Source: Candidatus Omnitrophota bacterium
GTDB lineage: Bacteria; Omnitrophota; Gorgyraeia; Zapsychrales; Zapsychraceae
Reading direction: 5' to 3'
DNA length: 64,000 nt
NCBI GenBank assembly: GCA_015233495.1
Contig: JADFXQ010000002.1
Span: 34,390 to 98,389 of the forward strand
Numbering within the stretch: the first letter of the stretch is position 1; the number at the start of each line of letters is the position of its first letter. Position numbers and translations under genes: made by a program. Below the pieces are notes generated by a model. It was given only the letters and a program-made list of their open reading frames with translations, was not told where the DNA came from and made no database searches. Positions 29,555-50,548 of the stretch are shown here, piece by piece.

Positions 29555-29556
29555 CG

Positions 29557-34984: not shown

Positions 34985-35039
34985 TCAATAACGGGGGAAA
35001 CACAAAGATAATGATCAATTTTTCGTATTTTTTTATTTT

Positions 35040-35200: not shown

Positions 35201-35206
35201 ATGATA

Positions 35207-35509: not shown

Positions 35510-35547
35510 TGATCAATCCCGTCAACCAAACCGGCGAGAAATTGAGG

Positions 35548-37147: not shown

Positions 37148-37375
37148 GTGTTTATTGCTCGCATATAAATAGACATAGGCGCGGCTGGGAGATAAAAATA
37201 GATTTGTTTAAATTATTGGCAGAAAGTTTATTCAGATCGTTCTTTTATTGAGGTGCGCGTCAGGTTATACCAATATCCCGTTTGGAAGTGGTAGGATGCA
37301 TAATGACCGACAGAGCGTTGTTTTTGGGATTGTCCCATCAAAGGGGATTGCAGCAATAAACCGATCTGTATATCT

Positions 37376-37675
37376 TTGCCGCCGGGAACTTATGAAATGA
37401 CATCATTTCGAACTATAACAATGGGGCCGCGTACAGAATCGGCGCCGGGCATTAAATTTAAGGTCGAGCCAAATTCTGTAGTATATATCGGCACATTAAC
37501 AGGGCAATCCCTGGGTCCGGCTTGGGGGCCGATACAGTATGTATTTAAGGTGGAAGATGAACTTGAAGAAGAGACGCAGGCTCAAGCCGAATCCTGTCCC
37601 GGCGTGAAAGATGGCAAGCCGGTGATTAGTTTGATGGAGGCGCCGTATAATTCGGTCAGGGCCAATGTTTGGTAA
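37376..37675 (+). CDS. hypothetical small protein
   Basis: 99-aa ORF with no recognisable motif. It may be spurious or a gene fragment. Confidence 0.25.
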   Translation: MPPGTYEMTSFRTITMGPRTESAPGIKFKVEPNSVVYIGTLTGQSLGPAWGPIQYVFKVEDELEEETQAQAESCPGVKDGKPVISLMEAPYNSVRANVW

Positions 37676-37732
37676 AATAGGGAGACAGCGCAAAATCGTA
37701 ATAACTTGTTCTAGTAAAAAGAGATCGTGAGA

Positions 37733-37750
37733 TCTGACACCATTTATTTT
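37733..37750. repeat. 18-bp inverted repeat, right copy (ctgacaccatttattttc)
   Basis: Exact reverse complement of 34335-34352. Confidence 0.8.
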
Positions 37751-37811
37751 CCGCAGTCCTAATTATTTCCTTCTTTCCGGATTAGAAGTTTTCCCGTTGA
37801 CTCAAAAGAAA

Positions 37812-37856
37812 ACGCTTTCCCGGAGGGCGCGCAAAGCGTCTTTTTTGCCGTTTTTA
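37812..37856 (+). terminator. terminator-like hairpin with T-run immediately upstream of the giant gene
   Basis: acgcttt(37812-18) / aaagcgt(37833-39) 7-bp stem with a 14-nt GC-rich loop, followed by cTTTTTTgccgTTTTTa. Confidence 0.3.
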
Positions 37857-37873
37857 TCGGGTATACTTTAAGT

Positions 37874-40800
37874 GTGGATACTATTTTTATTATTAGTATT
37901 TATAAACATATCTTGAAACGCTTGGTGGCTTTTGTTGTTTTGTTGTGTTTTTTGCTTTTAAATGTCCGGCCGCTTGCCGCGGGAGGTTGGCCACAGCCGC
38001 CATCCGTGACCATTCTTGATTCTTCGCGCCCTTTTACGCCATTTTTACTTAAAGGCGTCACCATCGATCCGCGCAATCCTTTGCATTTTGATTTTATCTT
38101 TGATCCCGGTCAATCTTCGATGTCCACGAATCATTCGGAAAAAGAAGCGAGCCGCATCGTCAAATATTTTTTGGCGGCTTTGGCTTTGCCGGAAAAAGAC
38201 CGCTGGGTCAATCTTTCTTTGCAAGAGAGCGGCAGGATAATCCCGGAAATTTTTGGTTTGACTGATATGGGACGGGATATGTTGTCGCTGGATTTTGTCT
38301 TAAAGCAGTTGTCTGCCTCTTTGACTCACCCGGAACAAAAATTAGGGGCGGAGTTTTGGCGCCGCGTTTACGCGAAGGTCAAGAAAGAATACGGCACAGA
38401 TGAAGTTCCGGTTGACTCGGTTACCCGGGTATGGATCGTGCCGGCGCAAGCCGTGGTTTATACGAGCGGGCAAAGCGCTTTTGTGGCTAAAAGCAGTCTT
38501 AAGGTATTAGCGGAAGAAGATTATTTGGCGGGGAAACCGCAAGGACTTAAAGCTTCGGAACCAGATAGCCTCAAAGGTAAAAATACCGCAGCGGTGTTCA
38601 CGGATATATTTCGCGCGATTGTAATCCCGGAGATCGAAAAGGAAGTAAACACAGGTGACGCCTTTGCGCCATTACGGCAGATTTATAACGCCCTGGTCCT
38701 CGCTACCTGGTTTAAACAACAGTGCAAAGCCGGGACGTTGGGAAAGGGCTATTTCGGACAAAAGAAGATTAAAGGAATTGATGTCGCAAAAGACCGGTTT
38801 AAAGAAAAAATTTATGAACAGTATACGGAGTCTCTGAAAAAAGGCGTTTATAATTTCATCAGGGAATATAACGATCCTTTGACGGAGGAAACCGTTTCCC
38901 GTCAATATTATTCCGGCGGGATCGAGTTTACGACAGAGGTTGATCGAAAAGTTCAGTTTTTGCCTTTAGAGAAAGAAGTGTTTCTTGCCGTCCTGAGAAA
39001 ATCGTCTCCGGTGTTAGAAGGCGCTTCAATATATATTGATCCGATAACCAAGGAGGAGAAACTACCGCGTCCCAGGATGTCTTCGCCGGTCAAGCCTCCC
39101 GTATTGGACGACAGTTCTCGGCAAGCGTTAGAGGATTTGGGATTGTCTTATAAAGAATTCCAACGATTGACTTTCGCGCAGACCGGATTCGAAGAAGCAT
39201 TGTTTAACGCTTTTCCGGCTTTAAAATTAAATATATTTTCTTTGCGGACGCAGGAACGTTTTTCCCGCGCGGTGCGGTCGCTGACGCGGGAATTGCGTGA
39301 GAATAGCGTAGAGCCAAAAATCGCTTTAGGGTTCGCGATCCGGTTTGCGATTCAACAATTCTATCAGGATATTTTGCCGGAAAATCTTTCATCGGCGGAT
39401 AACCAACGTTGGAATCAGATTGTCTCTCAATATTTTCGCGATTTTCTTCCCTCCCCGGGCCCGCGGATACCGGAGTATGTAAAACGGAAATACAATTTTG
39501 ACGATAACATGAACGGGAGGGTTGCCCGCGCCTTGATATCGCGAACCCCGGTTGTGTTTAAAGCCGCGAAAAACAGCGATGGATTGTTGACAGATGAGCT
39601 GCGACGGCAGGCCGGCGAGGGCAACATTGATTTGAGCGTTGTTTGGGGACATCCTTCCACGGATGAACGGCAGTTGATCGGCGGCCGCGTGCCTAAGGAG
39701 GGTAAAGACGGTTTGGTTTTCGGTTATGGCGTTTTAACGGAGAAAATTGAAGCCGCGCGCAGTGATCCGGGGAAGAAATATGTTGTGCTGATCAAAAATA
39801 TCGAAGCCGTTGATCCGGAAGTCCGCTTGCTTTTGCAAGAAATGCTGCGGATTTCCGAATTGTCCCATCCGGGTTTGGGTCAGGTATATCTTCCCGAGAA
39901 TTTTCAGATTATTTTCACCATGGCGGAAACCGCGAATATCGAAGACGATTCTTTTTACGACCGGGTCAGCGTAAAAACAGTTCCCGCCGATCTAACTTTC
40001 AAGCCGAAAACCCTTCCCGGTGTAACGGCAGGCGTCACGGCGGAGAATTACCGTTCTGTCTTAACCATTAAAGGGTCAGCGGACAATCCGGTTTTGGTTT
40101 TACCGGGGACACAGATCCGTTTGAACCAGGAATTTCGCGGGATCACTACTGAAAATATGTTTTCTATGATTTATGAAAAAACCGGTCTCTTGCTTGATTT
40201 CGATACGGTTCGGATGTTGGTCGCCATGGCGAACGCAGTCAAGTCCGGAGAACCCATTCTGCGGCTAATTGGTCCTACGGGTGTGGGAAAAACATTCACC
40301 AGCCGCGGATTTGCTTTATTGCGGGGCTCGTCTTTTTTCGCGAACCCGGTAAGTCCCGGCACGGAATTCACGGATTTGATCGGCAGTTTTGAGCAACAAG
40401 ACAATCACTTGTTCGCGTTTAACGGTGAGACCACATTTAAGGAGCGATTGGAAAACGGCGGGGTGGTGGCTTTGAGCGAGCTTAACACTTTAGTTGACAA
40501 TAATCAAAAAGCGAGCTTGGCGTGGTGGTTGACCCAGATCAGCCAGACTACCCCGGACGCCGACGGTTATCGGACGATTTATCTTACCGAAGTTCCGGTT
40601 GCGCCCGGACAACCGCGGCCGAGCATCCGGATTCATCCGCAGTCCTTGATTGTTGTTGATGTGAACCCGGCAGTCTATGAAAGCCGCGCCGCTTTTCCGG
40701 ATGTCTTCGAGGAATCCACGCCCGAATTGACTATTGGTTCGTATATTAGCGCTATTGCCGCGGATAGAGCGGCGGATATCCATAAATTATCTCAAACCGC

Positions 40801-43800
40801 CCGGCAATTTTTAAGCCTGGGTGTTCGGATTCAAGGACGGATGATTCCGGGGATTAGTGATCCGGCACGTTTGGAAGTTTTGGCAGAGGCAATAGGGACT
40901 CGGTATTATGAAGTGGTTGCCGCGTATGATCAGCACAAGTTTGGCGGTAAAGATCAATTTCATTTTTCAAATCGAGAACTTAAACGCATAGCGGAGGATG
41001 TTTTATTATGGATGGAGCGCGGCTTGAGTTCGGACGCGGCGCTCGCGAAAGCCTTTACTCATCATTTGGTGGTGCGCTGGAACGCGCAAAATGACCGGGA
41101 TTATGCCGCGAATTTGATACCTGACGCGGAAGTTACGCTGGGTTTACGGGAGTTTGTGGAACATGAAGTTTTCGTTGCTAATCGGCGGGCGCATATACGG
41201 GTTGCGTCAGGGATAGATACTCAAGTCTTGATCGATGAAATTAAAGACGGCAGGGATGATGTTGTGGTTCGCATTATTAACGTGACCCAGGAATTGGACA
41301 GGTTCAAATTGGAAGGCGGCCGTGTGGTGAATGAAGACGGCCGGGGTTACGCATTTGCCGAGGGGTTGATTGGCCGGATGATTGCACAAGCCGAAACAGC
41401 GCCGGATAAAAAATTTCTTTATGTTTTTGAGAATATCCATAATCTGTGGCCGGAAGACGCGGTGGGTTTGAACGAAATTCTTCAGGAAGGGACATTGTCG
41501 GTGCGGGGCAGGGATACCAAGCGTAGTATTCCGGTAAATGCCGGCATAATGTCCATCAGCCGTCAGGACACGGACTGGACCTGGTCGGAAGCGGAGAAAT
41601 CCCGGTATGTGACCTATGTTTATGAACGGGATACTATTGGCGAACAAATTCAAAACCGGCTTAACGATTATTTTCGCGCTAATGGTCTTGAGCCGGCAGT
41701 CGCGATAGCGTTAAGCCGGATGTTTTGGCGTAGGCTCAAGGTGTCTATAGAATATATTCAGTCGAATAAAGCTTATCAGAACCGGGTGAGCGAGCGCTCC
41801 GCGCTTAAATGTATAGAACTATTTATAAAATTGACCGCGGAAAGACAGGAGGCCGGCGGCTTGAATGTGGCGGATTTGATCAATTTGTTTCGAAAGTCTT
41901 GCGATTTGACGTTTGGGATCAGTGTTCCGCGACGTGTTTTACTGGATAACTCACAGAGTCGGGTTGCAGCTGTTTATCAGAATTTATTTACGGTTTTTGG
42001 CGCTCTGCCGTTTGGCGCGCCGTTGAACGCAGTGACATCGCAAAAATCTGGCGGGGCGGAAACCGCGGCGGGCGAAGCTGAAGCCGGTAATGTAAATTTG
42101 AATGGGGAAATCGCGCTAGCGCTCGCTGCAGCCAAATTAGATTTAGAAATGGCGGATGCAGAAGACCGGTCAAGCGCTTTGCAGAAATTGAAAGAGGTTT
42201 TGGAACTGTCTGAGCATACCGGAGATTTGACGGGAGAGCCAACCGCGGCGCAAGATTTAAAAAATCTTGATGTAGTCAGGGCAGTATTGAAACAGAGTTC
42301 GCATAAGTTTCGGGGAAGTGTTACAGGGTTCGACGTTAATGAACACGGCGTAGTAGTTTGGACTAACTTAGATGAGATATGGATACAAAAAAATGATGGT
42401 AAAATCTTAACGACACGATTTCCTGGCATGATCAGAAATGTAAGGATTTCAGCGGATGAACTGGTGTACATTTCGGGTGAAAATACGGTTTGTGTAATCA
42501 AACAAGATGACCTGAATCATTTGATATCTTATCCCACATATTTAACCACTGATAATGTTGAAGCGATTCAACATTTGGTTATTAGTAATGGAGTAGTTGC
42601 CGCGGCTACCGCAAAAGGGGGGCTTTTATTGTGGGAAAAGGAAGGGAATCAATGGTTAGAAAAGATTAGATGGAAGGATGGTTTTCCAATAGAGCAATTA
42701 TTGTTATCAGGTGAAACTTTAGCGGTGAGGATGCGTAATGGTACTTGTCGCATTTGGCAGAAAAATGGCGGAGCTTGGGAACAGCAATCCGGATTGGTTT
42801 TGGGCCATTCGTCGGATAACCGCTTTAAGAACCGAATTTGGCAAATCGTTGCAAAGGTCAGGAGAATATTTTTGGGGGGAGATAAAGGATATATTCCTGG
42901 AGTGAGTCAGATAGCTTTGTCTGAGACTGAATTCGCGATTTTTACTCATTCCGGAGAAATCATTATGTGGGCAAAAGAAGTCGGGCAATGGCGAGCAGAG
43001 CCGGTTTTACGAACTTCGATTGAACCGGGTGTTTATAGGGTGGGGCATTTTGTTTTGAAAGACAGCGCTTTGGTTTATTGCAGTTTTAATGGGGAAGTAC
43101 GTTTATGGGGAAAACATGGCGACAAATGGATCAAAGAACCATTGATAAAAGACGATACTTTTGGAACGAATGTCCGGTTTTTTGATTTTAATAATGGGGT
43201 CTTGGCTATTGGCGGAAACGTGGGCGCCCTGAAGACTTCATCAGCCGAACCAAAAGGGGGCATCCGCGTCTGGGAACGGGAATTTAGTCTATGGGGACCT
43301 AAATGGCAGCTTCGAATCAAGGAAGATAATTTAGATGGTTTGGCGGATTTGAAGGTATCGAAAGGCGCGGTTCGTGTTCTTGCTGTGACCTTGAATGGGC
43401 AAATATTGAGTTGGGTTAATCAAATTATTAAATGGCAAATCGATCCAGTGAGAACGATAAAGCATTCGGGCCAGATTTTTGGGGCGCAAACGCACTCGGG
43501 TAATTTGCTGGTCGTGACTACCGACGCGGTCGATGTTTATCAACCTGGCATAGGGATAGTTTATGGGACAGCGGTAATGCAGTTTAACGGCGCTGAAGAT
43601 GTGCCTGTGAGTGATTTAGCGGATGAGGTAGTCCGAATGAGTGTAAGAGAACCGCCGCGTCCGGAAATTTTGGCACAGCAAGAAGCGCGGGCAAAACAGG
43701 AGATTATTTTGGGAGACGAAAAAAAGCGAGCGCCGGCTTTGCTTAAATTGGGGGAAACGTTGACTGCGGCGGAACAGGCTGACCATTTGGAAAAGGAAGC

Positions 43801-46800
43801 TGAGGTTGAATCGGCAACATTAGCGGATTTGGATGTGGTGGTTGGGTTGATGAGCGAATCGGGCCACAAGTTCGCGGGCAAAATCAAAGGATTCGAGTCG
43901 AATGAATATGGCGTTTTAGCGTGGAGCGATCAGAAGGAAATTTGGTTGAAGGACGCGAAGGGGGATATTATCGAGTATCAATTTGATCAAGAAATCAGAT
44001 ACGCCAGAATCGCTCGGGATCGATTAGTTGTCGCGGATATTGACAGAATTTATATATGGGAGAAAGATAATGGGGTTTGGCAGCGACGAGCTTTTGTTTC
44101 AGATTTGTTGCCGGGTTATACTAAGGGGCTGGCGATTTCGGATGACGGCGTAGTCGCGGTTTGCAACAGCTACGGACAAATTTATTTATTTAAAAAACAA
44201 AATGGGCAATGGAAAAGCGCGAATAATATAAAAGTATTTTTTGTTATTGGAATGATTTTTGATCGTTTAGAAAAATTTTTGCTTAAAACAAACGTGGGTA
44301 TGGTTTTATGCCGTTTTATTGAGAAATGGGATTTCAGAATGCGCAGTAACCGATCATTTGACAAAATATATTTCCGGGGCGAATTATTGGTGGTAGAAGA
44401 AGTGGTGGATTATGATGGAAAACAGTATTTTGGCGTTTTTGAAAGAAAAGACGGCCGCTGGGCGCGGGTTTTTAAAAGAAAATTCGATGGACCGATTAAA
44501 AATTTTGTTGTTTTGAAAAATGTCTTAACTGTGGTTGATAAGCAAGGTGTGGTTTTTTCAGTTAGCAAATCTGAAGGTAAATGGGTTATGAGAGAGAGGA
44601 GGATAGGATCCGAACAGGTTTTATACATATCTGAGGATGTGTGGTTATCGGCGATAGGTGAAGTGCAGTTGGTATATAAAGATGGGGATCAGCCTGAGCA
44701 ATATCTTTTTTTACCTGTTCGATTCGCGGAGGTTTCTTATGTGGCAAGAGACAAAGATTTTTTAGCTATAGGCACTAAATCCGGATCGATTTATTTATAT
44801 GAGAAAAAAGATTATTTGCCGATAGGAAATACAAGTCGGATGTCTGCATATCTGGAACCGCAAAACAAGTGGAGATTGGCAGGACAGGCAGATAACTTGG
44901 GAACAATTAAGGGATTAAACATTAAAGATGGAAAAGTAATTGTGGCAACGGAAGACGGAAGTGTTAAATGGTTTGGGGTTGGCCGCGGGATGGTTCATGA
45001 AGGAATAGTGCGCAATCTGAATGGCGAGGGCCAGATGGATCAGCGGAGTTTGAGTAAAAAAGTTACCCGGTTAAAGGTGAAATATGAAAGACATAATCAA
45101 ACCGGATCTCCGGAAGATCAAAAGTTTGAGCCGCTGGTTGGCTATGGGAACCGGCCGTTTTATTTTGGCGCGGATCGAGACGGAAATGTATATCTGAATT
45201 TTGACAATCGTTGGTATCGGACGCGGCACACTTTGACGCAGCCCTTTGATCACGCTCTGTTGAGCGGGCCCCGCACAGCGCCCGTCAATGGTCGGCCGAC
45301 GGAGATTTTTCCCGTCCGGTTAGACGCGGTCAAGCATCCGGACAGCCGGCTGGAGCGGTCTTTCACCAAAAAAGATTTTTTGATGACTACCGGGGATTTG
45401 ACGGAAGAAGAAAAAGCGGTTTTACTGAATTTTGAGATATCCCGTCAGGTTGATTTGGAAGGTCCTTCCGGAGCCGGGAAAACGAGCATTGGGAAAGAGA
45501 TCGCGCTTTTGCTCGGCCTGCCGGTTTTTGTGTTGCAGATGCACGGTCAGCGGGATTTATCGGATTTGATCGGTGCCTATCGCGAGGATGAACACGGCCG
45601 GTATTATCTTTCCATGAAACCCAAACCAGTAGCTAAGGATATTTTGGAAGCTGCGGTCGCGCCGGCATTGGTGAGTCGGTTATTGGAAAAAGGGGTTATT
45701 CGCGTTGATGACAAGGATCCAGAGGTTTACTACTGGGGGTATGGGATTTATTCTTTGGTTGATTTGGAAGAGCGTTTGGACGCTTTGGGCGGCATACTCG
45801 GCCAACCGGACAAAAAGGCGCTGCGTGCCTTGGTGCATTATCGTTTGCCGCTTTTGGAGTTTTTGACGTGGGGCGGGATATATATCGTGGATGAAGGCGC
45901 GATCGGGGAACAGGGTCAGGCTTTGATCAACTGGTTTAGCCGGATTGTGAACGGTGATTCCGAAATCAGTATTGATGATTTCACTGGACTCTCAATTCGG
46001 TTTAAGGTGCATACGGATTTTCATTTGATTATCACTAACAATTCTCCGGAAGACACGGCCGGCCGGGAGTTTTTGAAAAGCGAAATCGCGGCTAATATCG
46101 GGTTTATTTATGTCCCGGAAGATGATTCCCCGGACACTATTGAAGGTTTGTTGGAACATTTTTTACAAGATGAATTAGCCGGGACAGATGTCCGGGGAGT
46201 GAAAAGCGCTCTGCGTAAATTGTATTTGGATATCAAAGCGGCAGTGGGAACCAGCATCGGGACAGATAAAAAAGAGCGGTATTATATTTCCAAACGGGAA
46301 ATCCGCCGGGTGGCAGCCCGGCTATTGTTTGAATACAAAAAAGATCCGGAACATTTTGATTTTACTTATAGTTTTTATAAGGCTTTGCGGATTGTGTTTG
46401 AAGCCGCGTTTTCGCATGAACAAGAGAGACAATTCGTGATGGATAAAATTGTCACTCATTTGAAAGAGACATTTCCGGAACGGGCGCAAGCGATTGATCA
46501 ATTTAAAGCCAAGCTCGAGGCGGAAATTAACAATCGTTTTGCTTTTGCTTCAACTGAAAATGAGAAATGGGTTTTATGGGTGGCAGATGAACTTTTAAAC
46601 CAGGATGAGCCGTTGTTATTGATCGACGAACGCGGGGCCAGGACCAGAGCGATGTTAAGGCGATTGCAAGAAAACCGGGGCGCGGTATTCGATCTGGTCG
46701 ACGCGGTTCCGAGTCATACCAGTTTCGAACTTTTAGGAGCGATTCTGCCGGAATTTTCGGATAAGGGGATTGCCAAACCCGGGAGCAGGATGCGTTTTGT

Positions 46801-49800
46801 GAAAGGCCGGCTCATTGAACATCTGTTGACCAAAGAAGAAATGGAGCAGGCCGAGAGCCAAGGCGGAAAAAGTCAAGAGGTCATTGTCTGGATCAGGAAT
46901 ATCGATCAATGGAACGAAGATATCCGCAGTAGTCTCAACGGTCTTTTAGAAAACGGATATATTGACATTGAAACCAGCCGGGGTGAAACGATCCGGTATT
47001 ATAAACCGCGTCACGTGCGATTTATCGCCGGGATCAATGCCCAGAGCGGCGAGGATTTTTCCAGCGCGTTTTTCAACCGCTGGGTGAAAGTCGGTGTCCT
47101 GGCAGAACCGCGGCCGGATCAAAATGTTGACAAGGGAGAATCGGATTTTCAAAAGGTGTTGAGCGATGTTTATGAAATGGATTCCCGCGAGGCCTATTTA
47201 TTCGCGCGTTTGTTTTTAGAGACGTCCCGCCGGGAAGCTCAGAGACAATGGAGCGTTCAGGAGAGTTATGATTTAACTCCCGAGACATTTTACCTGATTG
47301 CCGCGGCGGTGCGGTTGGCGAAACAACAAAGTCCGCAGTGGCAAGCCATTTTGGCCGCGTTTGAACGGCAGAATTATGATCCGCGCCGGGAATCGCCGAC
47401 TAACGCGGCGCAACGCGATCTGGAGGCCGAGTATCGTCGTTTGTCTAACCGGATATTGACCCAGGAAATCGCCCGTTTGTTTTTACCGCGGTTTCGAACC
47501 GCTACTTCCGCTGATACCGGGGACCGCAAGCTGGTGGAAGATAGTATCCGGGCCGTTTTTAACCTTCAGGGGCCGATTACGCTGGATACGACAGATATTG
47601 TTTCACCCGATTTGTCAGCGGTCCCGGACAAGATCCGGCTGTATTACACGACAAAAATCCGGGAATATTTGAGCGCTCTACAGCGGGCGTCGCAGATGAA
47701 TCGCGGTATTGATATGTTGGGCGAATCAGGCGCCGCGAAAACCACTTTGGCCGAACATTTGGCTCACCGCACGGGGAGAAAGTTTTACAAATATCAGTCG
47801 CACGCGAAAAGTGAGGTGACAGATCTGACGATCGAGCTTAGTCAGACGGAAGACGGCGTCATTCAGAAGCGGTACAAGGAATTTTATGCTTGGCTGAAAA
47901 ATGGGAATGCGGTGATTGATTTTGACGAAGCCAACGCGGCGCCGCATATTTTATGGGCGCTGGAAGCGGTCCTGAATGGAGAGAGCGTTATTTATCCGGC
48001 TTTTCCGGGTGAGAAACCCTTTAAGATCGGTGATAATATCACGATTGTTTTTACTCGTAACCCCCTGCGTTATGCCGGCCGGCAACAGATTGAAAAACGG
48101 ATCACAGATAAAATGGTTGTCTTATGGATTGATTTGCCTGATCCGGAGGAAAAAGCGAAAATTGTTCAGACGTTTTACGGGGTTTGGGCCTTAGAGGAAG
48201 AAACGGCAGTCGCGCCGACTGAGGAACTACACCCGAAAGAGAAGGCCAATATCCCACATGAAAGCGATCTGCCGGTTTCGGACACTATTGATATGGACAC
48301 GGATATGAAGGAAGGCCGGGAGATACCGACTATGCAAGATGAAAAAAATTTAACCGAACCACCGGCGGTTTCCACTGCCCCTAAACCCGCGGCGCGCGGG
48401 GTATTCACGCCGGAACTTTATCCGCGGACTCGTCTGGGGGTCTATAATCGATTCGATGCGGCCACAGAAAAATTTTGGCTTGAACGAGGCGAGTATAAAT
48501 CCGTGCCAGTGACTCCGAAGACCGGGAGGGAAAGAACGATCATTGAGGAGACAAGAGATATTTTTCAGGGACAATATATTTTGCGTCTGGGACATGCCTT
48601 CAGCCGCTTGCCGTCGGCTGGAGCGGATATGGAGTTTATTGATTTGAGTGTGAGGGATACCGCGGGTAACTTGCTGGACATTCCGGTCGAGATTACGCGT
48701 GACAGCGCGGACAATTATTATATTCGGCAAAAAGACGCAGATGCTCCGGCAGCTGAGGTTGAAATCCGTTACACAGTCACAGTAGCGAAAGAATATTTCG
48801 GGAAGATTATTCCCAATAACCCGGACATTGGACCGGATATCCGCGAGACCATGACTGTGATGGGTCTCACCCCCAATAACCCGGACATTGGACCGGATAT
48901 CCGCGAGGCCATGACTGTGATGGGTCTCACCGGAAAGGAACGGGATTTCCGGGAGGTTTTATATAAAATGATCGCGTTTACCCGGGATTTTAAATTAGAA
49001 AAAATAACCGCGGAAGGACCAAGTAAATTTTTACGGATTTTAAGATCGGGTGCGGGTGTTTGCCGGCATGGGGCGCAGATATTTGCCGCAACGGCTTGGG
49101 CGATCGGAATGCCGGCCAGGTTAGTCGTTTCCGATATTCATGAATTCGTGGAAGTGGAGGTTCCGGGAATCGGCTGGATGCAAATTGACCTCGGCGGGGG
49201 CGGCGATCCCGCCAACATGGATTTGAGTCCGCTGGCGAATGAGCGGCATAATCCGGCGTATGCCAATGATTTTCCCGAGCCGGAAAATTATAAACAAAAA
49301 AAGGAGTTGTATCGGGACCTATATGAGAAGGCGATGAAGGATCAGGGGATTAAACCGCCGGTATCTCCCCGGCCGAATCGCTCCGGCGAAACGGGCGCGG
49401 CGGATAACGACGCGGCGATAGGCGGTCATTTTGATCCGAAACTGGAAGGGGAGCGCATTGACGCGGCTTTGGCAAATTTGATCCGCGAACAGGGGGCGAC
49501 GCTTAACCAGGATATTGAAAATTCGTTTCAGAGCGGCACGGTCATCGCCGAGCAAGTATTCGAACGGATGAAGCGGGCTATTGAAGCGGGGATCCGTTAT
49601 AAACGGGAAATGAAGAAAAATGGGTTGGAGATTGATCCCGTGGCCTGGATGCTGCGCTTACCGAATCCGTTTGTCAAGCGGACACGGGTTACGAAATTGC
49701 AGACCACCGCAGTGGCGGTTTTGTTTGACGCGAGCGGCAGTATTAGCGTTATCCGTGAGCCGGTCACTTACGCGATCGCCGTTACCGGAAAGAATTTTCA

Positions 49801-50548
49801 GCAATTGAACGATACGGCGCCGCAGCATTTTCATTATGATCTTTCGACTTATACCCATCTTGAACCCGAGACGATTGATAGCATGAGTCAGCGGATGAGC
49901 GCGGAAGATATGGATAAACAATTGATTAAATTAGCGAACTTGATCGGGAACGGCGGCGGCAATGATTTGCAACGGGCAATGTCTTTTAAGCTGACGAATG
50001 AACAAGGTACAGGTTTTCTTGATGCCCGCGAGGCGCGAACCGCGAAAGTGAAATATATGATCGTGTTTACCGACGGAGCTGACGCGGCCATTCGGCAGAA
50101 CGGAAATGATTATGAGCCCCAGGATTCTTTTAAGGAAGTTTTACGAAGATATCGTGACGCCGGGATTGACTTGATTGCCATCGGGATCGGCGCAGGCTCA
50201 AAATATGTGCGGGCGTTCAAAGGCGAGGGACAGCATTTTGTCCAGATTGACGATAAGCATCCCGAAAACATCGCGGAAGCAATCGCGGCTATCGCGGAGC
50301 TGAAATCCAGGGGAATGGGTATTTTGCCGGACGGCGACATCACGCCTTTGATGCAATTCTCGCAAAGCAGTCCGATCAGCGATGCAGACGCGAATAAAGT
50401 CGGCGGTATTGATTTGACCGCGGACTGGGTGACTATTGAAACGCATACCGCGGGCCGCGAAATTCAAATTCCTCGGCTTCCTGAAAATTTTGACTGGTCG
50501 CGAGTGCAGGGATTAAACCCGCTGATTCTGGAATTTTATTCGTATTAA
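37874..50548 (+). CDS. giant secreted multi-AAA+ ATPase / beta-propeller / transglutaminase-like / vWA(MIDAS) protein, 4224 aa
   Basis: A single uninterrupted 12,675-nt ORF. GTG start with no obvious SD; an in-frame TTG at 37913 is an alternative. N-terminal signal peptide (KRLVAFVVLLCFLLLNVRPLAA). Walker A motifs GPTGVGKT (40271), GPSGAGKT (45461) and GESGAAKT (47720), with matching AAA_5-type Walker B regions. Duplicated W-rich repeat module at 42295-45420. TGase core GVCRHG...H...D at 49049-49189. vWA MIDAS motif DASGS at ~49730. Confidence 0.85.
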   Translation: MDTIFIISIYKHILKRLVAFVVLLCFLLLNVRPLAAGGWPQPPSVTILDSSRPFTPFLLKGVTIDPRNPLHFDFIFDPGQSSMSTNHSEKEASRIVKYFLAALALPEKDRWVNLSLQESGRIIPEIFGLTDMGRDMLSLDFVLKQLSASLTHPEQKLGAEFWRRVYAKVKKEYGTDEVPVDSVTRVWIVPAQAVVYTSGQSAFVAKSSLKVLAEEDYLAGKPQGLKASEPDSLKGKNTAAVFTDIFRAIVIPEIEKEVNTGDAFAPLRQIYNALVLATWFKQQCKAGTLGKGYFGQKKIKGIDVAKDRFKEKIYEQYTESLKKGVYNFIREYNDPLTEETVSRQYYSGGIEFTTEVDRKVQFLPLEKEVFLAVLRKSSPVLEGASIYIDPITKEEKLPRPRMSSPVKPPVLDDSSRQALEDLGLSYKEFQRLTFAQTGFEEALFNAFPALKLNIFSLRTQERFSRAVRSLTRELRENSVEPKIALGFAIRFAIQQFYQDILPENLSSADNQRWNQIVSQYFRDFLPSPGPRIPEYVKRKYNFDDNMNGRVARALISRTPVVFKAAKNSDGLLTDELRRQAGEGNIDLSVVWGHPSTDERQLIGGRVPKEGKDGLVFGYGVLTEKIEAARSDPGKKYVVLIKNIEAVDPEVRLLLQEMLRISELSHPGLGQVYLPENFQIIFTMAETANIEDDSFYDRVSVKTVPADLTFKPKTLPGVTAGVTAENYRSVLTIKGSADNPVLVLPGTQIRLNQEFRGITTENMFSMIYEKTGLLLDFDTVRMLVAMANAVKSGEPILRLIGPTGVGKTFTSRGFALLRGSSFFANPVSPGTEFTDLIGSFEQQDNHLFAFNGETTFKERLENGGVVALSELNTLVDNNQKASLAWWLTQISQTTPDADGYRTIYLTEVPVAPGQPRPSIRIHPQSLIVVDVNPAVYESRAAFPDVFEESTPELTIGSYISAIAADRAADIHKLSQTARQFLSLGVRIQGRMIPGISDPARLEVLAEAIGTRYYEVVAAYDQHKFGGKDQFHFSNRELKRIAEDVLLWMERGLSSDAALAKAFTHHLVVRWNAQNDRDYAANLIPDAEVTLGLREFVEHEVFVANRRAHIRVASGIDTQVLIDEIKDGRDDVVVRIINVTQELDRFKLEGGRVVNEDGRGYAFAEGLIGRMIAQAETAPDKKFLYVFENIHNLWPEDAVGLNEILQEGTLSVRGRDTKRSIPVNAGIMSISRQDTDWTWSEAEKSRYVTYVYERDTIGEQIQNRLNDYFRANGLEPAVAIALSRMFWRRLKVSIEYIQSNKAYQNRVSERSALKCIELFIKLTAERQEAGGLNVADLINLFRKSCDLTFGISVPRRVLLDNSQSRVAAVYQNLFTVFGALPFGAPLNAVTSQKSGGAETAAGEAEAGNVNLNGEIALALAAAKLDLEMADAEDRSSALQKLKEVLELSEHTGDLTGEPTAAQDLKNLDVVRAVLKQSSHKFRGSVTGFDVNEHGVVVWTNLDEIWIQKNDGKILTTRFPGMIRNVRISADELVYISGENTVCVIKQDDLNHLISYPTYLTTDNVEAIQHLVISNGVVAAATAKGGLLLWEKEGNQWLEKIRWKDGFPIEQLLLSGETLAVRMRNGTCRIWQKNGGAWEQQSGLVLGHSSDNRFKNRIWQIVAKVRRIFLGGDKGYIPGVSQIALSETEFAIFTHSGEIIMWAKEVGQWRAEPVLRTSIEPGVYRVGHFVLKDSALVYCSFNGEVRLWGKHGDKWIKEPLIKDDTFGTNVRFFDFNNGVLAIGGNVGALKTSSAEPKGGIRVWEREFSLWGPKWQLRIKEDNLDGLADLKVSKGAVRVLAVTLNGQILSWVNQIIKWQIDPVRTIKHSGQIFGAQTHSGNLLVVTTDAVDVYQPGIGIVYGTAVMQFNGAEDVPVSDLADEVVRMSVREPPRPEILAQQEARAKQEIILGDEKKRAPALLKLGETLTAAEQADHLEKEAEVESATLADLDVVVGLMSESGHKFAGKIKGFESNEYGVLAWSDQKEIWLKDAKGDIIEYQFDQEIRYARIARDRLVVADIDRIYIWEKDNGVWQRRAFVSDLLPGYTKGLAISDDGVVAVCNSYGQIYLFKKQNGQWKSANNIKVFFVIGMIFDRLEKFLLKTNVGMVLCRFIEKWDFRMRSNRSFDKIYFRGELLVVEEVVDYDGKQYFGVFERKDGRWARVFKRKFDGPIKNFVVLKNVLTVVDKQGVVFSVSKSEGKWVMRERRIGSEQVLYISEDVWLSAIGEVQLVYKDGDQPEQYLFLPVRFAEVSYVARDKDFLAIGTKSGSIYLYEKKDYLPIGNTSRMSAYLEPQNKWRLAGQADNLGTIKGLNIKDGKVIVATEDGSVKWFGVGRGMVHEGIVRNLNGEGQMDQRSLSKKVTRLKVKYERHNQTGSPEDQKFEPLVGYGNRPFYFGADRDGNVYLNFDNRWYRTRHTLTQPFDHALLSGPRTAPVNGRPTEIFPVRLDAVKHPDSRLERSFTKKDFLMTTGDLTEEEKAVLLNFEISRQVDLEGPSGAGKTSIGKEIALLLGLPVFVLQMHGQRDLSDLIGAYREDEHGRYYLSMKPKPVAKDILEAAVAPALVSRLLEKGVIRVDDKDPEVYYWGYGIYSLVDLEERLDALGGILGQPDKKALRALVHYRLPLLEFLTWGGIYIVDEGAIGEQGQALINWFSRIVNGDSEISIDDFTGLSIRFKVHTDFHLIITNNSPEDTAGREFLKSEIAANIGFIYVPEDDSPDTIEGLLEHFLQDELAGTDVRGVKSALRKLYLDIKAAVGTSIGTDKKERYYISKREIRRVAARLLFEYKKDPEHFDFTYSFYKALRIVFEAAFSHEQERQFVMDKIVTHLKETFPERAQAIDQFKAKLEAEINNRFAFASTENEKWVLWVADELLNQDEPLLLIDERGARTRAMLRRLQENRGAVFDLVDAVPSHTSFELLGAILPEFSDKGIAKPGSRMRFVKGRLIEHLLTKEEMEQAESQGGKSQEVIVWIRNIDQWNEDIRSSLNGLLENGYIDIETSRGETIRYYKPRHVRFIAGINAQSGEDFSSAFFNRWVKVGVLAEPRPDQNVDKGESDFQKVLSDVYEMDSREAYLFARLFLETSRREAQRQWSVQESYDLTPETFYLIAAAVRLAKQQSPQWQAILAAFERQNYDPRRESPTNAAQRDLEAEYRRLSNRILTQEIARLFLPRFRTATSADTGDRKLVEDSIRAVFNLQGPITLDTTDIVSPDLSAVPDKIRLYYTTKIREYLSALQRASQMNRGIDMLGESGAAKTTLAEHLAHRTGRKFYKYQSHAKSEVTDLTIELSQTEDGVIQKRYKEFYAWLKNGNAVIDFDEANAAPHILWALEAVLNGESVIYPAFPGEKPFKIGDNITIVFTRNPLRYAGRQQIEKRITDKMVVLWIDLPDPEEKAKIVQTFYGVWALEEETAVAPTEELHPKEKANIPHESDLPVSDTIDMDTDMKEGREIPTMQDEKNLTEPPAVSTAPKPAARGVFTPELYPRTRLGVYNRFDAATEKFWLERGEYKSVPVTPKTGRERTIIEETRDIFQGQYILRLGHAFSRLPSAGADMEFIDLSVRDTAGNLLDIPVEITRDSADNYYIRQKDADAPAAEVEIRYTVTVAKEYFGKIIPNNPDIGPDIRETMTVMGLTPNNPDIGPDIREAMTVMGLTGKERDFREVLYKMIAFTRDFKLEKITAEGPSKFLRILRSGAGVCRHGAQIFAATAWAIGMPARLVVSDIHEFVEVEVPGIGWMQIDLGGGGDPANMDLSPLANERHNPAYANDFPEPENYKQKKELYRDLYEKAMKDQGIKPPVSPRPNRSGETGAADNDAAIGGHFDPKLEGERIDAALANLIREQGATLNQDIENSFQSGTVIAEQVFERMKRAIEAGIRYKREMKKNGLEIDPVAWMLRLPNPFVKRTRVTKLQTTAVAVLFDASGSISVIREPVTYAIAVTGKNFQQLNDTAPQHFHYDLSTYTHLEPETIDSMSQRMSAEDMDKQLIKLANLIGNGGGNDLQRAMSFKLTNEQGTGFLDAREARTAKVKYMIVFTDGADAAIRQNGNDYEPQDSFKEVLRRYRDAGIDLIAIGIGAGSKYVRAFKGEGQHFVQIDDKHPENIAEAIAAIAELKSRGMGILPDGDITPLMQFSQSSPISDADANKVGGIDLTADWVTIETHTAGREIQIPRLPENFDWSRVQGLNPLILEFYSY
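42295..45420 (+). repeat. internal tandem duplication of a ~520-aa Trp-rich beta-propeller-like module (protein level)
   Basis: Module 1 starts HKFRGSVTGFDVNEHGVVVWTNLDEIWIQKNDGKIL. Module 2 starts HKFAGKIKGFESNEYGVLAWSDQKEIWLKDAKGDII. Both contain recurring phi-W-x-K-x-G-x-W repeats. Confidence 0.6.
48811..48930 (+). repeat. perfect 2 x 60-bp in-frame tandem duplication inside the giant gene
   Basis: 48811-48870 and 48871-48930 differ at only 2 positions. They encode PNNPDIGPDIRE(T/A)MTVMGLT twice. Confidence 0.9.

What the first reader, a model, noticed from the sequence alone, without database searches (positions are those of the whole stretch)
39500..48100. AAA+ modules alternate degenerate and intact Walker A in a 3+3 arrangement split by a 3.1-kb insert
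Intact P-loops are seen at 40271 (GPTGVGKT), 45461 (GPSGAGKT) and 47720 (GESGAAKT). Each has a downstream hhhhDE/SE Walker B (VVALSELN, IYIVDEGA, VIDFDEAN). Each is preceded by a module with a recognisable AAA_5 Walker B/sensor region but no canonical GxxGxGK[ST]. Those regions are KYVVLIKNIEAVDPEV at ~39780, LYVFENIHNLWPEDAVGLNEILQEG at ~41410 and EVIVWIRNIDQWNEDIRSSLNGLLENG at ~46880. Active and inactive protomers alternate, as in several pseudo-hexameric AAA machines. The two halves are separated by the beta-propeller duplication rather than being contiguous as in midasin or dynein.
Basis: partly seen in the sequence, partly recalled or inferred. Interest (0 to 1): 0.6.

Follow-up and report, generated by a model that had tools for sequence, protein, structure and literature searches.

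The report
Bacterial single-chain alternating AAA+ ring
A 4,224-residue Omnitrophota protein strings six dynein/midasin-type ATPase modules on one chain in a strict dead-live-dead-live pattern, split in the middle by a probable beta-propeller insert and followed by a protease-like and a metal-dependent binding domain; this design has not been described for such motors.

Summary
One ORF (window 37874-50548, +; 4,224 aa; identical to GenBank MBF0531693.1, "AAA family ATPase", Ca. Omnitrophica MAG) carries six AAA+ modules.

- **Alternation.** Odd modules (M1, M3, M5) are mutual paralogues, as are even modules (M2, M4, M6): an (AB)x3 layout.
- **Complementary motifs.** Across 27-47 homologues per module, even modules keep Walker-A Lys, Walker-B Glu and sensor-1 Asn (36-40 sequences each; at most one exception) but have no conserved arginine finger. 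Odd modules lack the P-loop and the Walker-B acidic pair, yet their arginine finger is invariant (27/27, 24/24, 46/46).
- **Implication.** Three composite ATP sites are implied, at M2/M3, M4/M5 and M6/M1.
- **AAA+ identity.** The odd-module profile hits midasin structures at E=2e-34. An AlphaFold model of M1-M3 (pLDDT 87.5) matches dynein and Rea1 ring arcs.
- **Insert.** The 3.07-kb insert lies at a dead interface and varies in size and position among relatives.
- **Downstream domains.** A Cys-His-Asp transglutaminase-like domain and a VWA domain with an intact MIDAS motif follow the ring.

It reads best as a fused MoxR-VWA-TGL-type remodelling machine, not a midasin orthologue. Ring closure and cellular localisation remain untested.

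The parts
37874..50548 (+). Single ORF of 4,224 aa (GTG start), identical to GenBank MBF0531693.1 'AAA family ATPase' of a Candidatus Omnitrophica MAG
   Evidence: 0 differences over 4,224 aa
37910..37966 (+). Only strongly hydrophobic segment of the protein (aa 13-31). It looks like a signal peptide or signal anchor; similar N-termini occur in most full-length relatives.
   Evidence: Kyte-Doolittle 2.42; next best 1.55
37976..39073 (+). Omnitrophota-wide N-terminal 'leader' domain (aa ~35-400), no Pfam family
   Evidence: at least 199 hits with E<=1e-3 (the 120 listed are all E<=3e-73) in hypothetical Omnitrophota proteins
39530..40063 (+). M1, degenerate AAA+ module (aa 553-730). No P-loop; Walker B is K641-N642; invariant arginine finger R697 (nt 39962).
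40157..41128 (+). M2, P-loop module plus helical lid (aa 762-1085). K806/T807; Walker B S868-E869; sensor-1 N931; R938; lid motif FSNRELKR at aa 1031. No arginine finger (S948).
41144..42025 (+). M3, degenerate AAA+ module plus lid (aa 1091-1384). Walker B is E1186-N1187; arginine finger R1244 (nt 41603).
42026..45097 (+). Insert of 3.07 kb (aa 1385-2408): a low-complexity linker (aa ~1385-1408) and a first helical stretch, then two diverged copies (from aa 1441 and from aa 1961) of a helical segment plus a probable 7-8-bladed beta-propeller
   Evidence: composition shift
45098..46573 (+). M4, the only fully canonical module, plus lid (aa 2409-2900). K2536/T2537; D2673-E2674; N2723; R2731; lid motif ISKREIRR at aa 2805. 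Arginine-finger position is N2741.
46586..47605 (+). M5, degenerate module plus helical region (aa 2905-3244). A conserved 'E.GAR' replaces the P-loop; Walker B is R3008-N3009; arginine finger R3069 (nt 47078).
47606..48169 (+). M6, P-loop module without a lid (aa 3245-3432). GESGAAKT with K3289/T3290; D3351-E3352; N3396; R3403. Arginine-finger position is K3413.
48194..48373 (+). Acidic, proline-rich linker after the ring (aa 3441-3500; 28 % Asp+Glu)
48971..49243 (+). Transglutaminase-like (TGL) thiol-peptidase core with conserved C3730, H3756 and D3772
   Evidence: (Transglut_core 29 bits, cut-off 23)
49712..50200 (+). VWA domain with a MIDAS motif: D3952-x-S3954-x-S3956 plus T4066-D4067
   Evidence: (VWA 34.5 bits, cut-off 23.8)
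50402..50545 (+). C-terminal 'GGIDL ... GLNPLILEF' tag, shared with many Omnitrophota proteins and several family members

Best explanation
The gene encodes a self-contained, single-chain AAA+ remodelling machine of the MoxR/midasin/dynein (AAA_5) clade. Its six modules form three 'dead-live' pairs.

Shown by conservation:
- The even modules (M2, M4, M6) carry the Walker A, Walker B and sensor-1 residues expected for ATP binding.
- The odd modules (M1, M3, M5) lack both the P-loop and the catalytic Walker-B residues, so they are not expected to bind or hydrolyse ATP.
- The odd modules alone keep the trans-acting arginine finger.

Inferred from the known rule that module i+1 supplies the finger to the site of module i:
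- Only three composite active sites exist, at the M2/M3, M4/M5 and M6/M1 interfaces. This resembles the alternating catalytic and non-catalytic sites of F1-ATPase.
- The ring must close between M6 and M1.
- The 3.07-kb insert (two probable beta-propeller units) hangs out of a dead interface, M3/M4, where it does not disturb catalysis.

Inferred by analogy with MoxR-VWA pairs, midasin and the predicted MoxR-VWA-TGL operon:
- The C-terminal MIDAS/VWA domain grips an acidic residue of a target protein.
- ATP-driven ring movements pull on or remodel that target.
- The Cys-His-Asp transglutaminase-like domain cleaves or modifies it.
- The propellers serve as a docking platform.

The target and the cellular compartment are unknown.
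For: Six modules and the (AB)x3 layout:
- Pfam AAA_5 hits.
- Self-BLAST links M1 to M3 (8e-9), M2 to M4 (1e-6) and M4 to M6 (1e-7).
- hhalign on orthologue alignments gives 99.8-99.9 % probability among odd modules, 100 % among even modules, and 95-96 % for M1-M6 and M5-M6.

Complementary motif conservation in 27-47 homologues per module:
- Walker-A Lys: 36/36, 39/39 and 40/40 in M2, M4 and M6.
- Walker-B Glu: 36/36, 38/39, 39/39. Sensor-1 Asn: 36/36, 38/39, 39/39.
- Arginine-finger position: no Arg among the six commonest residues in M2, 2/39 in M4, 12/40 in M6.
- Arginine finger: 27/27 in M1, 24/24 in M3, 46/46 in M5.
- It is the only invariant column in a joint alignment of 39 odd modules.

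Motif register:
- Fixed by alignment to midasin, where the invariant Arg pairs with midasin R-x-R-F.
- Fixed also by the AlphaFold model, which places the P-loop after beta1, Walker B at the end of beta3, the Asn at the tip of beta4, and the Arg between alpha4 and beta5.

Ring-type packing: the M1-M3 model (pLDDT 87.5, pTM 0.85) matches dynein motor domains, including the AAA2-4 sub-structure 7mi3 (E=1e-20, TMq 0.58), and Rea1.

Direction of the finger (module i+1 acts on site i; AAA1 acts on AAA6) is taken from the Rea1 review PMC6920918.

Insert at a tolerant position:
- In relatives its length ranges from about 50 to 3,400 aa.
- In another clade it sits after the M4 lid instead.

Output domains:
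- The TGL triad is conserved in 14 sequences (this protein plus 13 relatives).
- The MIDAS D-x-S-x-S and T-D-G motifs are conserved in 49 (this protein plus 48 relatives).

Context and precedent:
- No conserved gene neighbourhood, so the protein is self-contained.
- A MoxR+VWA+TGL system is predicted in the literature (PMC3495828).
Against: - Ring closure and the M6/M1 site were not modelled; the full ring exceeds the 1,200-aa limit.
- No coordinates were available, so no Arg-to-P-loop distances could be measured.
- M2 has Ser instead of the Walker-B Asp, and M6 has Ala/Val/Ile before the P-loop Lys and no lid. Possibly only M4 hydrolyses efficiently.
- In a second clade the insert lies between M4 and M5, a 'live' pair, so 'the insert sits at a dead interface' is not a family rule.
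- The N-terminus looks like a Sec signal peptide, here and in most relatives. That would place an ATPase outside the cytoplasm.
- The TGL domain is absent from many family members, so it is accessory.
- The beta-propeller assignment rests only on sub-threshold Pfam hits and a blade repeat.
- There are no experimental data.
Confidence: 0.55

Rival explanations
1. It is a true midasin (Mdn1/Rea1) orthologue, either a prokaryotic ancestor of midasin or a eukaryote-to-bacterium transfer, and works like midasin: a six-AAA ring plus a MIDAS domain that pulls factors off a large complex.
For: - The PDB profile search with the degenerate modules gives midasin at E=2e-34, far ahead of dynein-2 (4e-5), CobS and NorQ.
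- Eukaryotic midasins appear in the representative search at about 1e-19.
- It has a C-terminal VWA/MIDAS domain.
- A relative scores 21.9 bits on the midasin lid model AAA_lid_7.
- M6 lacks a lid, as midasin AAA6 does.
Against: - There is no positional orthology. Every module profile scores best on midasin AAA3, AAA4 or AAA5.
- Modules within the protein are much closer to each other (E 1e-29 to 1e-45) than to any midasin module.
- Midasin has AAA2-5 active as a block, not in alternation (PMC6920918).
- There is no ~1,700-aa linker or long Asp/Glu-rich region.
- A TGL domain and a ring insert are present here, and midasin has neither.
Confidence: 0.1
2. The two triads do not form one intramolecular ring. 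The insert separates two independent half-rings that pair with triads of other chains (for example dimers forming two mixed rings) or act as open arcs.
For: - About 1,020 aa separate M3 from M4.
- Only the N-terminal triad could be modelled.
- Nothing computed here shows M6-M1 or M3-M4 contacts.
Against: - The M1 arginine finger is invariant although no module precedes it in the chain (27/27). This is explained most simply by action on M6.
- A relative (P0023) has all six modules contiguous, with a gap of about 50 aa.
- The insert varies from 326 to 3,400 aa and changes position, as expected for a loop-out from a constant ring.
- Dynein also carries large excursions from its ring (own knowledge).
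- Swapped dimers would satisfy the same motif logic, so this rival is weakened but not excluded.
Confidence: 0.15
3. It is an exported cell-surface or prey-directed protein of a predatory or epibiotic Omnitrophota cell. The signal peptide, the phylum-specific N-terminal domain and the C-terminal GGIDL tag direct it out of the cytoplasm, and the ATPase ring works only where ATP is available, for example inside a target cell, or works without ATP.
For: - Signal-peptide-like N-termini occur in this protein and in most full-length relatives.
- The N-domain and the C-terminal tag are shared with hundreds of small Omnitrophota proteins, some carrying cytoplasmic-type enzymes.
- The gene lies among envelope glycosyltransferase genes.
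- An Elusimicrobia relative lies next to two S8 peptidases.
- Giant Omnitrophota proteins have been proposed to act on prey surfaces (bioRxiv 10.1101/2023.11.21.568195).
Against: - The catalytic residues in M2, M4 and M6 and the arginine fingers are almost perfectly conserved, implying ATP turnover, and ATP is not normally available outside the cell.
- No dedicated signal-peptide or topology predictor was available; localisation rests on hydrophobicity and visual inspection only.
- The gene neighbourhoods examined are not conserved and show no secretion-system genes.
Confidence: 0.2

Closest known systems
Midasin (Mdn1/Rea1), eukaryotic ribosome-assembly AAA+ protein
   Same: - Six AAA_5-type modules on one polypeptide, with a C-terminal VWA/MIDAS domain.
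- It is the best sequence match of the degenerate-module profile in the PDB (E=2e-34).
- The last module lacks a normal lid in both.
- Motifs shared with midasin: 'LxGG..P', 'NP..Y.GR' and 'S.A...RF'.
   Different: - No positional orthology of modules.
- Midasin has AAA2-5 active as a block (PMC6920918); here live and dead modules alternate.
- No ~1,700-aa linker or long Asp/Glu-rich region.
- This protein has a large insert inside the ring, a TGL domain, a signal-peptide-like N-terminus, and comes from a bacterium.
Dynein heavy-chain motor domain
   Same: - Single-chain AAA+ ring in which some modules have lost nucleotide binding.
- Large structural excursions leave the ring.
- Best structural matches of the M1-M3 model: E=2e-21, TMq up to 0.61, including the AAA2-AAA4 sub-structure.
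   Different: - Sequence similarity is much weaker than to midasin (E about 4e-5).
- Dynein's dead modules are AAA5 and AAA6, a contiguous pair (own knowledge).
- No linker, stalk or microtubule-binding domain was recognised here.
- Dynein has no VWA domain.
Prokaryotic MoxR-VWA-TGL (YebA-type) three-gene system, predicted by Zhang & Aravind 2012 (PMC3495828)
   Same: The same three activities are combined: a MoxR-clade AAA+ ATPase, a VWA/MIDAS co-chaperone and a Cys-His-Asp transglutaminase-like peptidase. That system is predicted to be a membrane-proximal, ATP-dependent protein-processing machine.
   Different: - Here everything is fused in one chain.
- The ATPase is a concatenated six-module pseudo-hexamer of AAA_5 type, not a homo-hexamer.
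- The TGL domain is not embedded in an eight-helix membrane protein.
- A beta-propeller insert has been added.
- The TGL domain is missing from many family members.
NorQ/NorD, CbbQ/CbbO and CobS/CobT (AAA_5 homo-hexamers with VWA partners)
   Same: The same AAA_5 family paired with a VWA/MIDAS partner. They appear as weaker PDB hits (CobS 5e-5, NorQ 9e-3; NorQ 0.16).
   Different: - Those are homo-hexamers of ~270-330-aa subunits with six equivalent sites and a separate VWA protein.
- They act in metal insertion or Rubisco activation.
Alternating catalytic/non-catalytic rings (F1-ATPase alpha3beta3; hetero-hexameric AAA+ such as Pex1/Pex6)
   Same: It works like these. Three catalytic sites alternate with three non-catalytic ones, and the non-catalytic partner supplies the trans-acting arginine (own knowledge for F1 and Pex1/Pex6).
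   Different: - Those are assemblies of separate subunits from other ATPase families.
- Here the alternation is hard-wired into one chain of the dynein/midasin clade.

Membership tests
AAA+ MoxR/dynein/midasin clade (Pfam AAA_5, helix-2-insert plus pre-sensor-1-insert clade) | Match to the AAA_5 profile above the curated cut-off | tested here: met
   The whole protein scores 95 bits (cut-off 22). By segment: M2 22.5, M4 22.2 and M6 38.5 bits pass; M1 20.4 and M5 12.7 fall below; M3 gives no hit.
AAA+ MoxR/dynein/midasin clade (Pfam AAA_5, helix-2-insert plus pre-sensor-1-insert clade) | Beta-hairpin inserted in helix 2 and a second hairpin before sensor 1, within a beta1-alpha1-beta2-alpha2-beta3-alpha3-beta4-alpha4-beta5 core | tested here: met
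   The DSSP string of the AlphaFold model (pLDDT 87.5) shows both hairpins in M1, M2 and M3, for example M2 strands 298-301/307-310 and 360-363/377-380. This is a predicted model, not a solved structure. M4-M6 were not modelled usefully.
AAA+ MoxR/dynein/midasin clade (Pfam AAA_5, helix-2-insert plus pre-sensor-1-insert clade) | Closed hexameric ring | not testable with these tools
   Six modules are present, and the N-terminal triad packs like a dynein ring arc. The full ring exceeds the 1,200-aa prediction limit.
Midasin (Mdn1/Rea1) | Six tandem AAA modules in one chain plus a C-terminal MIDAS domain with D-x-S-x-S | tested here: met
Midasin (Mdn1/Rea1) | Module-by-module orthology with AAA1-AAA6 and a block of active AAA2-AAA5 | tested here: not met
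   All six module profiles score best on midasin AAA3, AAA4 or AAA5. The pattern of live sites here is M2, M4, M6, against AAA2-5 in midasin (PMC6920918).
Midasin (Mdn1/Rea1) | Long (~1,700-aa) linker and an Asp/Glu-rich region between the ring and MIDAS | tested here: not met
   Only about 510 aa separate M6 from the VWA domain, and that stretch includes the TGL domain. The acidic stretch is about 60 aa.
MoxR-VWA-TGL (YebA-type) system | Co-occurrence of a MoxR-clade AAA+, a VWA domain with MIDAS aspartates, and a TGL domain with a Cys-His-Asp triad | tested here: met
   Transglut_core scores 29 bits (cut-off 23). C3730, H3756 and D3772 are conserved in 14 sequences (this protein plus 13 relatives). 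VWA scores 34.5 bits with an intact MIDAS motif.
MoxR-VWA-TGL (YebA-type) system | Three separate genes in one operon, with the TGL domain in a multi-pass membrane protein | tested here: not met
   This is a single fused ORF with only one hydrophobic segment, at the N-terminus. The neighbours are unrelated glycosyltransferases.
MoxR-vWA ternary conflict systems (Kaur et al. 2020) and known defence systems | Match to defence-system protein models, or a VMAP, iSTAND or FtsH third component | tested here: not met
   PADLOC gives only generic P-loop similarity (E>=4e-4), and there is no conserved partner gene. The Ala-Lys P-loop variant of M6 does have a precedent in those MoxR proteins.
Beta-propeller (insert) | Significant match to a propeller family, or a confident fold | tested here: inconclusive
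   Seven different propeller families match below their Pfam cut-offs (E 4e-5 to 0.04). A blade profile finds about 7 repeats in copy 1 and 3 in copy 2. The PDB profile search gives nothing significant. Relatives with inserts at the same site carry WD40, PD40 or Lactonase hits or annotations.

The most novel reading that the evidence does not exclude
A family of giant bacterial proteins (Omnitrophota, Elusimicrobiota) has built a dynein/midasin-like single-chain AAA+ ring independently of eukaryotes, by triplicating a dead-live module pair. The resulting ring has three F1-like composite active sites. It carries interchangeable 'cargo' inserts and a MIDAS grip, and it is exported behind a phylum-specific leader domain to act at the cell surface or inside prey cells.
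Probability: 0.2. Interest if true: 0.85.

Novelty: new variant of a known kind. Interest (0 to 1): 0.66.

Why it matters
Single-chain AAA+ rings are treated in the literature read here as a eukaryotic invention that arose from MoxR-like ancestors (PMC3495828).

- **A prokaryotic example.** This family shows a concatenated ring of the same clade in bacteria, closest in sequence to midasin and with the same ring-plus-MIDAS logic. It has a different internal design, (dead-live)x3 with reciprocal loss of the P-loop and the arginine finger.
- **Division of labour.** The family is a natural experiment in how work is divided inside an AAA+ ring, and in where large functional inserts can be placed.
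- **Direct tests.** It offers clear mutational predictions: three Lys and three Arg residues.
- **Origin of midasin and dynein.** It is a new comparison point for that question.
- **Annotation.** It gives content to proteins now labelled only 'AAA family ATPase' in poorly known, possibly predatory phyla.

Tried and rejected
Searches and predictions that led nowhere:
- The full-length homologue search timed out. The word-indexed search with the C-terminal triad found only two partial relatives. The exhaustive representative search was needed.
- Whole-protein self-BLAST returns only the identity hit, so segment-wise comparison was used.
- Single-sequence AlphaFold of M4-M6 was useless (pLDDT 35).
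- Whole-protein phmmer against the PDB gave only NorQ at E=0.16.
- The genome-contig scan was swamped by the generic P-loop pattern and returned one locus.
- The PDB profile search for the propeller units found nothing significant.
- PADLOC gave no defence-system match.
- A literature search for bacterial midasin-like proteins and for the GGIDL/GGIDF tag found nothing relevant. PMC117441 is not held.

Ideas considered and rejected:
- **Midasin orthologue.** Rejected because there is no positional orthology.
- **Decayed or pseudogenised modules.** Rejected because the odd modules are strongly conserved and carry the only invariant residue.
- **A conserved operon partner.** Rejected because four neighbourhoods share nothing.
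- **P0003 as independent confirmation.** Rejected because it is the same GenBank protein.
- **The fourth P-loop-like string at aa 1781 as a seventh module.** Rejected because it has no AAA context.

Full report
**1. What is at the locus**

The flagged region lies inside one ORF, window 37874-50548 on the + strand, 4,224 codons with a GTG start. Its product is identical, with 0 differences, to GenBank MBF0531693.1, "MAG: AAA family ATPase [Candidatus Omnitrophica bacterium]". The window therefore comes from that metagenome-assembled genome. The public annotation says nothing beyond "AAA family ATPase".

**2. Are there six AAA modules?**

Pfam AAA_5 scores 95 bits on the whole protein (cut-off 22). 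Scanning the protein in ten pieces gave these AAA_5 results:

| Module | Residues scanned | E-value | Profile positions or note |
|---|---|---|---|
| M1 | 541-760 | 5e-4 | 28-125, so no P-loop |
| M2 | 761-1000 | 1e-4 | |
| M3 | 1001-1300 | no hit | |
| M4 | 2481-2800 | 1.5e-4 | |
| M5 | 2801-3130 | 0.13 | C-terminal half of the profile |
| M6 | 3131-3460 | 1.4e-9 | full length |

- Segment-wise BLAST links M1 to M3 (E=8e-9), M1 to M5 (0.005), M2 to M4 (1e-6) and M4 to M6 (1e-7).
- An exhaustive HMMER search of 1.84 billion representatives with aa 2481-3460 found 669 relatives, 50 of them below 1e-30.
- From these I built orthologue alignments of each module, 27-47 sequences each at 22-46 % identity.
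- Profile-profile comparison gives M1~M3~M5 at 99.8-99.9 % probability (E 1e-29 to 1e-31) and M2~M4~M6 at 100 % (E 1e-40 to 1e-45).
- It links the two classes through M1-M6 (95 %, 9e-9) and M5-M6 (96 %, 2e-9).

The protein is therefore an (AB)x3 array.

**3. The degenerate modules are real AAA+ modules of the midasin type**

A joint alignment of 39 odd-module cores (A1) was searched as a profile against all PDB sequences.

- Midasin came first: S. pombe Mdn1 (6or5) at E=2.4e-34 and S. cerevisiae Rea1 (6i27, 6hyp, 5jcs) at 1e-33.
- Dynein-2 (3.6e-5), CobS (4.6e-5), McrB (2e-3) and NorQ (9e-3) followed far behind.
- The alignments put the odd modules' P-loop-less stretch opposite midasin G-x-x-G-x-G-K-T.
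- Their h-h-h-h-x-N stretch falls opposite midasin's Walker B.
- Their conserved Arg falls opposite midasin "R-x-R-F".

An AlphaFold2 model of aa 541-1300, built with a 14-sequence alignment (A2), is confident: mean pLDDT 87.5, pTM 0.85.

- M1, M2 and M3 each show the beta1-alpha1-beta2-alpha2-beta3-alpha3-beta4-alpha4-beta5 order.
- Each also has a beta-hairpin in helix 2 and a second hairpin before sensor 1. These two hairpins are the hallmarks of the MoxR/dynein/midasin clade.
- Foldseek against the PDB returns dynein motor domains first (9bn4, E=2e-21). These include the isolated AAA2-AAA3-AAA4 reconstruction 7mi3 (E=1e-20, TMq 0.58, TMt 0.40) and TMq values up to 0.61.
- Rea1 (6i27) follows at 1.3e-17.

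The three modules therefore pack as an arc of a dynein/midasin-type ring.

**4. The alternation is complementary, not decay**

Key positions were counted across the orthologue alignments.

| Module | Walker-A Lys | Walker B | Sensor-1 Asn | Arginine-finger position |
|---|---|---|---|---|
| M2 | 36/36 | Ser 27 / Asn 6 / Asp 3, then Glu 36/36 | 36/36 | Tyr, His or Asn; no Arg among the six commonest residues |
| M4 | 39/39 | Asp 39/39, Glu 38/39 | 38/39 | Asn 16, Arg 2 of 39 |
| M6 | 40/40 (preceding residue Ala 20, Gly 6, Val 5, Leu 4, Ile 3) | Asp-Glu 39/39 | 39/39 | Arg 12 of 40 (Lys in this protein) |
| M1 | none | second position Asn 24/27 | lost | Arg 27/27 |
| M3 | none | second position Asn 27/32 | lost | Arg 24/24 (8 truncated sequences) |
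| M5 | none (conserved "E.GAR" instead) | second position Asn 37/47 | lost | Arg 46/46 |

- In the joint odd-module alignment that Arg is the only invariant column.
- The register of the finger position in the even modules was fixed by aligning their profiles to a eukaryotic midasin.
- Midasin's "NP..Y.GGR" matches the conserved "NP..Y.GR" of M2, M4 and M6, and midasin's "R-N-R-F" falls on non-conserved residues in those modules.
- In the AlphaFold model every motif sits on the expected element. K806 opens alpha1, S868-E869 end beta3, N931 ends beta4, and R697 and R1244 lie between alpha4 and beta5.
- A lid motif of the midasin "LRDLLR" type (h-[ST]-x-R-[DE]-h) follows M2 (aa 1031) and M4 (aa 2805) only. 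M6 has no lid, as reported for midasin AAA6 (PMC6920918).
- An Ala before the P-loop Lys has a precedent in MoxR proteins, as G-x-x-x-T-A-K-S (PMC7159879).

**5. What follows (inference)**

In AAA+ rings the finger of module i+1 completes the site of module i. In Rea1, AAA1 would serve AAA6 (PMC6920918). Applied here, this gives the following.

- M3 completes M2, M5 completes M4, and M1 completes M6. That makes three live interfaces alternating with three dead ones.
- The invariance of R697 in M1, which has no preceding module in the chain, is the best available argument that the ring closes between M6 and M1.
- The insert of this protein leaves the chain at M3/M4, a dead interface.

I could not test closure directly. 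The six modules without the insert are about 1,700 aa, above the prediction limit, and no model coordinates are returned.

**6. The insert**

- Homologues conserve sequence up to the M3 lid and again from aa ~2409.
- After a low-complexity linker (aa ~1385-1408) and a first helical stretch, the insert holds two diverged copies, from aa 1441 and from aa 1961, of a helical segment plus a beta-rich region. The copies align over aa 1441-1844 and 1961-2364 (25 % identity, E=4e-20).
- Only beta-propeller families match, all below their cut-offs (RIG, HPS5, WDR36, EML and others; E 4e-5 to 0.04).
- A blade profile seeded on the recurring "G-x-h-x-h-W-x-K-x-x-G-x-W" motif finds about 7 repeats in copy 1 and 3 in copy 2.
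- A PDB profile search gave nothing significant. "Beta-propeller" is therefore probable, not shown.
- Among relatives the M3-M4 gap ranges from about 50 aa (P0023, effectively contiguous) to about 3,400 aa (P0012).
- Several of those inserts also carry WD40, PD40 or Lactonase signals or annotations.
- In a more distant clade (P0025, P0026, P0028, P0029, P0033 and others) the large insert instead follows the M4 lid.

The ring is the constant part and the inserts are variable appendages. The second clade also shows that "insert at a dead interface" is not a family rule.

**7. After the ring**

- An acidic, proline-rich stretch (aa 3441-3500) comes first.
- A transglutaminase-like domain follows (Transglut_core, 29 bits against a cut-off of 23). 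Its Cys3730, His3756 and Asp3772 are conserved in the 14 sequences (this protein plus 13 relatives) that have the domain.
- A VWA domain comes next (34.5 bits against 23.8). Its D3952-x-S-x-S and T4066-D4067 MIDAS residues are conserved in 49 sequences (this protein plus 48 relatives).
- The TGL domain is absent from many members.

The family core is therefore six AAA modules plus VWA.

**8. Relationship to known systems**

- The combination of a MoxR-clade ATPase, a VWA domain and a TGL peptidase is the widespread three-gene system that Zhang and Aravind predicted to be a membrane-proximal, ATP-dependent protein-processing machine (PMC3495828). Here it is fused into one chain, and the ATPase is a concatenated pseudo-hexamer.
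- The same paper states that a six-tandem-AAA protein arose from MoxR early in eukaryotic evolution. This family is a bacterial six-tandem protein of the same clade.
- It is not a midasin orthologue. Each of the six module profiles scores best on midasin AAA3, AAA4 or AAA5, with no positional correspondence. The intra-protein paralogues are also far closer to one another.
- Midasin's active block is AAA2-5, and the midasin linker is absent.
- The simplest reading is independent concatenation by triplication of a two-module unit. A module phylogeny is still needed.

**9. Distribution and context**

- Named relatives come from Omnitrophota and Elusimicrobiota MAGs. They are labelled "AAA family ATPase", "MoxR-like ATPase" or "MoxR-like ATPase/WD40 repeat protein".
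- One genome holds at least three paralogues (P0023 and P0029 on one contig; P0025 in the same accession series).
- Neighbourhoods are not conserved. This gene lies among envelope glycosyltransferases and a GH26 gene. P0007 lies beside two S8 peptidases. P0023 and P0012 lie in unrelated contexts.
- No defence-system model matches.
- No paper in the searched library describes the family. A preprint on Omnitrophota giant proteins only lists AAA_5 among frequent domains.

**10. Unresolved: localisation**

- The only strongly hydrophobic segment is aa 13-31, preceded by Lys/Arg and followed by "PLAA/GG". Most full-length relatives begin with similar signal-peptide-like sequences.
- The next ~370 aa form a domain found in at least 199 other Omnitrophota proteins, the 120 listed all with E<=3e-73. 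Most are 340-650 aa, and a few are fused to phosphoglycerate kinase or nucleoside-diphosphate kinase domains.
- Many of those proteins, this protein and several family members end with a "GGID(L/F) ... G-x-x-P-V-I-I" tag.
- This looks like a phylum-specific sorting or anchoring frame around variable cargo.
- An exported ATPase would be paradoxical, so I keep a cytoplasmic, membrane-tethered machine as the working model. The export reading is listed as a rival.

**11. Verdict**

- The thing is a new variant of a known kind: a single-chain AAA+ ring of the dynein/midasin clade combined with MoxR-VWA-TGL logic.
- Architecture and motif logic are well supported.
- Ring closure, ATP use at M2 and M6, the propeller fold, the substrate and the compartment are all inferred.

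Noticed in passing
window 37976-39073 and 50402-50545: The N-terminal ~370-aa domain is an Omnitrophota-wide module, found in at least 199 mostly 340-650-aa hypothetical proteins (40-51 % identity among the best 120, no Pfam family). Some of these are fused to PGK or NDK domains. Many of them, and this protein, end with a 'GGID(L/F) ... G.xPVI(I/L)' tag. Together the two elements look like a leader domain and a C-terminal sorting tag bracketing variable cargo.
   Followed up: partly
window 48812-48931: A perfect in-frame 60-nt tandem duplication (2.0 copies, 98 % match) encodes PNNPDIGPDIRE(T/A)MTVMGLT twice, just upstream of the TGL core. Homologues have a single copy.
   Followed up: partly
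window 42001-46000: The insert region has about twice the GC skew (0.30 against about 0.15) and a lower GC content (0.45 against 0.49) than the flanking AAA-coding parts of the same gene. The cause could be amino-acid composition or separate ancestry of the insert; this was not resolved.
   Followed up: no
window 28001-38000: This block has low GC (0.41-0.48) and strongly negative AT skew (down to -0.30). It encodes multi-pass membrane proteins (O-antigen-ligase-like or PMT_2-like) and a GH26-like gene. Glycosyltransferase, WecG and sugar-transferase genes lie downstream of the giant gene.
   Followed up: partly
window 37148-37873: A 726-nt stretch without a listed ORF of 100 aa or more precedes the giant gene. 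The promoter scan found no more sites than expected by chance, and no terminator.
   Followed up: partly
proteins P0046, P0060, P0061, P0079 (one search hits): Other prokaryotic giants carry four to six tandem AAA_5 modules with intact P-loops every ~350-400 aa. Examples are a 4,005-aa 'AAA family ATPase' of a Thermoproteota archaeon and 2,105-7,592-aa proteins, one of them (P0060) named as Omnitrophota. Concatenated AAA_5 arrays therefore exist in several prokaryotic versions.
   Followed up: partly
L003 / contig JADGBR010000001.1 and the same assembly: One Omnitrophota MAG encodes at least three paralogues of the family (P0023 and P0029 on one 490,973-bp contig; P0025 in the same accession series). 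They differ in insert position and tail.
   Followed up: no
L001 7077-9795 and 23442-27326: In an Elusimicrobia genome the orthologue (P0007) is preceded by two S8 subtilisin-like peptidase genes. A convergent 1,294-aa VWA-containing gene and three further large unannotated genes follow it.
   Followed up: no
window 43214 (aa 1781): A fourth P-loop-like string, GNVGALKT, lies inside the first propeller-like unit with no Walker B or AAA context. It is most likely a chance match.
   Followed up: yes
relatives P0025 (aa 811), P0029 (aa 692), P0033 (aa 482): A lid-type 'h-S/T-x-R-E-h' motif occurs N-terminal to M1 in some relatives. The helical region before M1 might stand in for the missing M6 lid at the ring-closing junction. 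This is speculative and untested.
   Followed up: no
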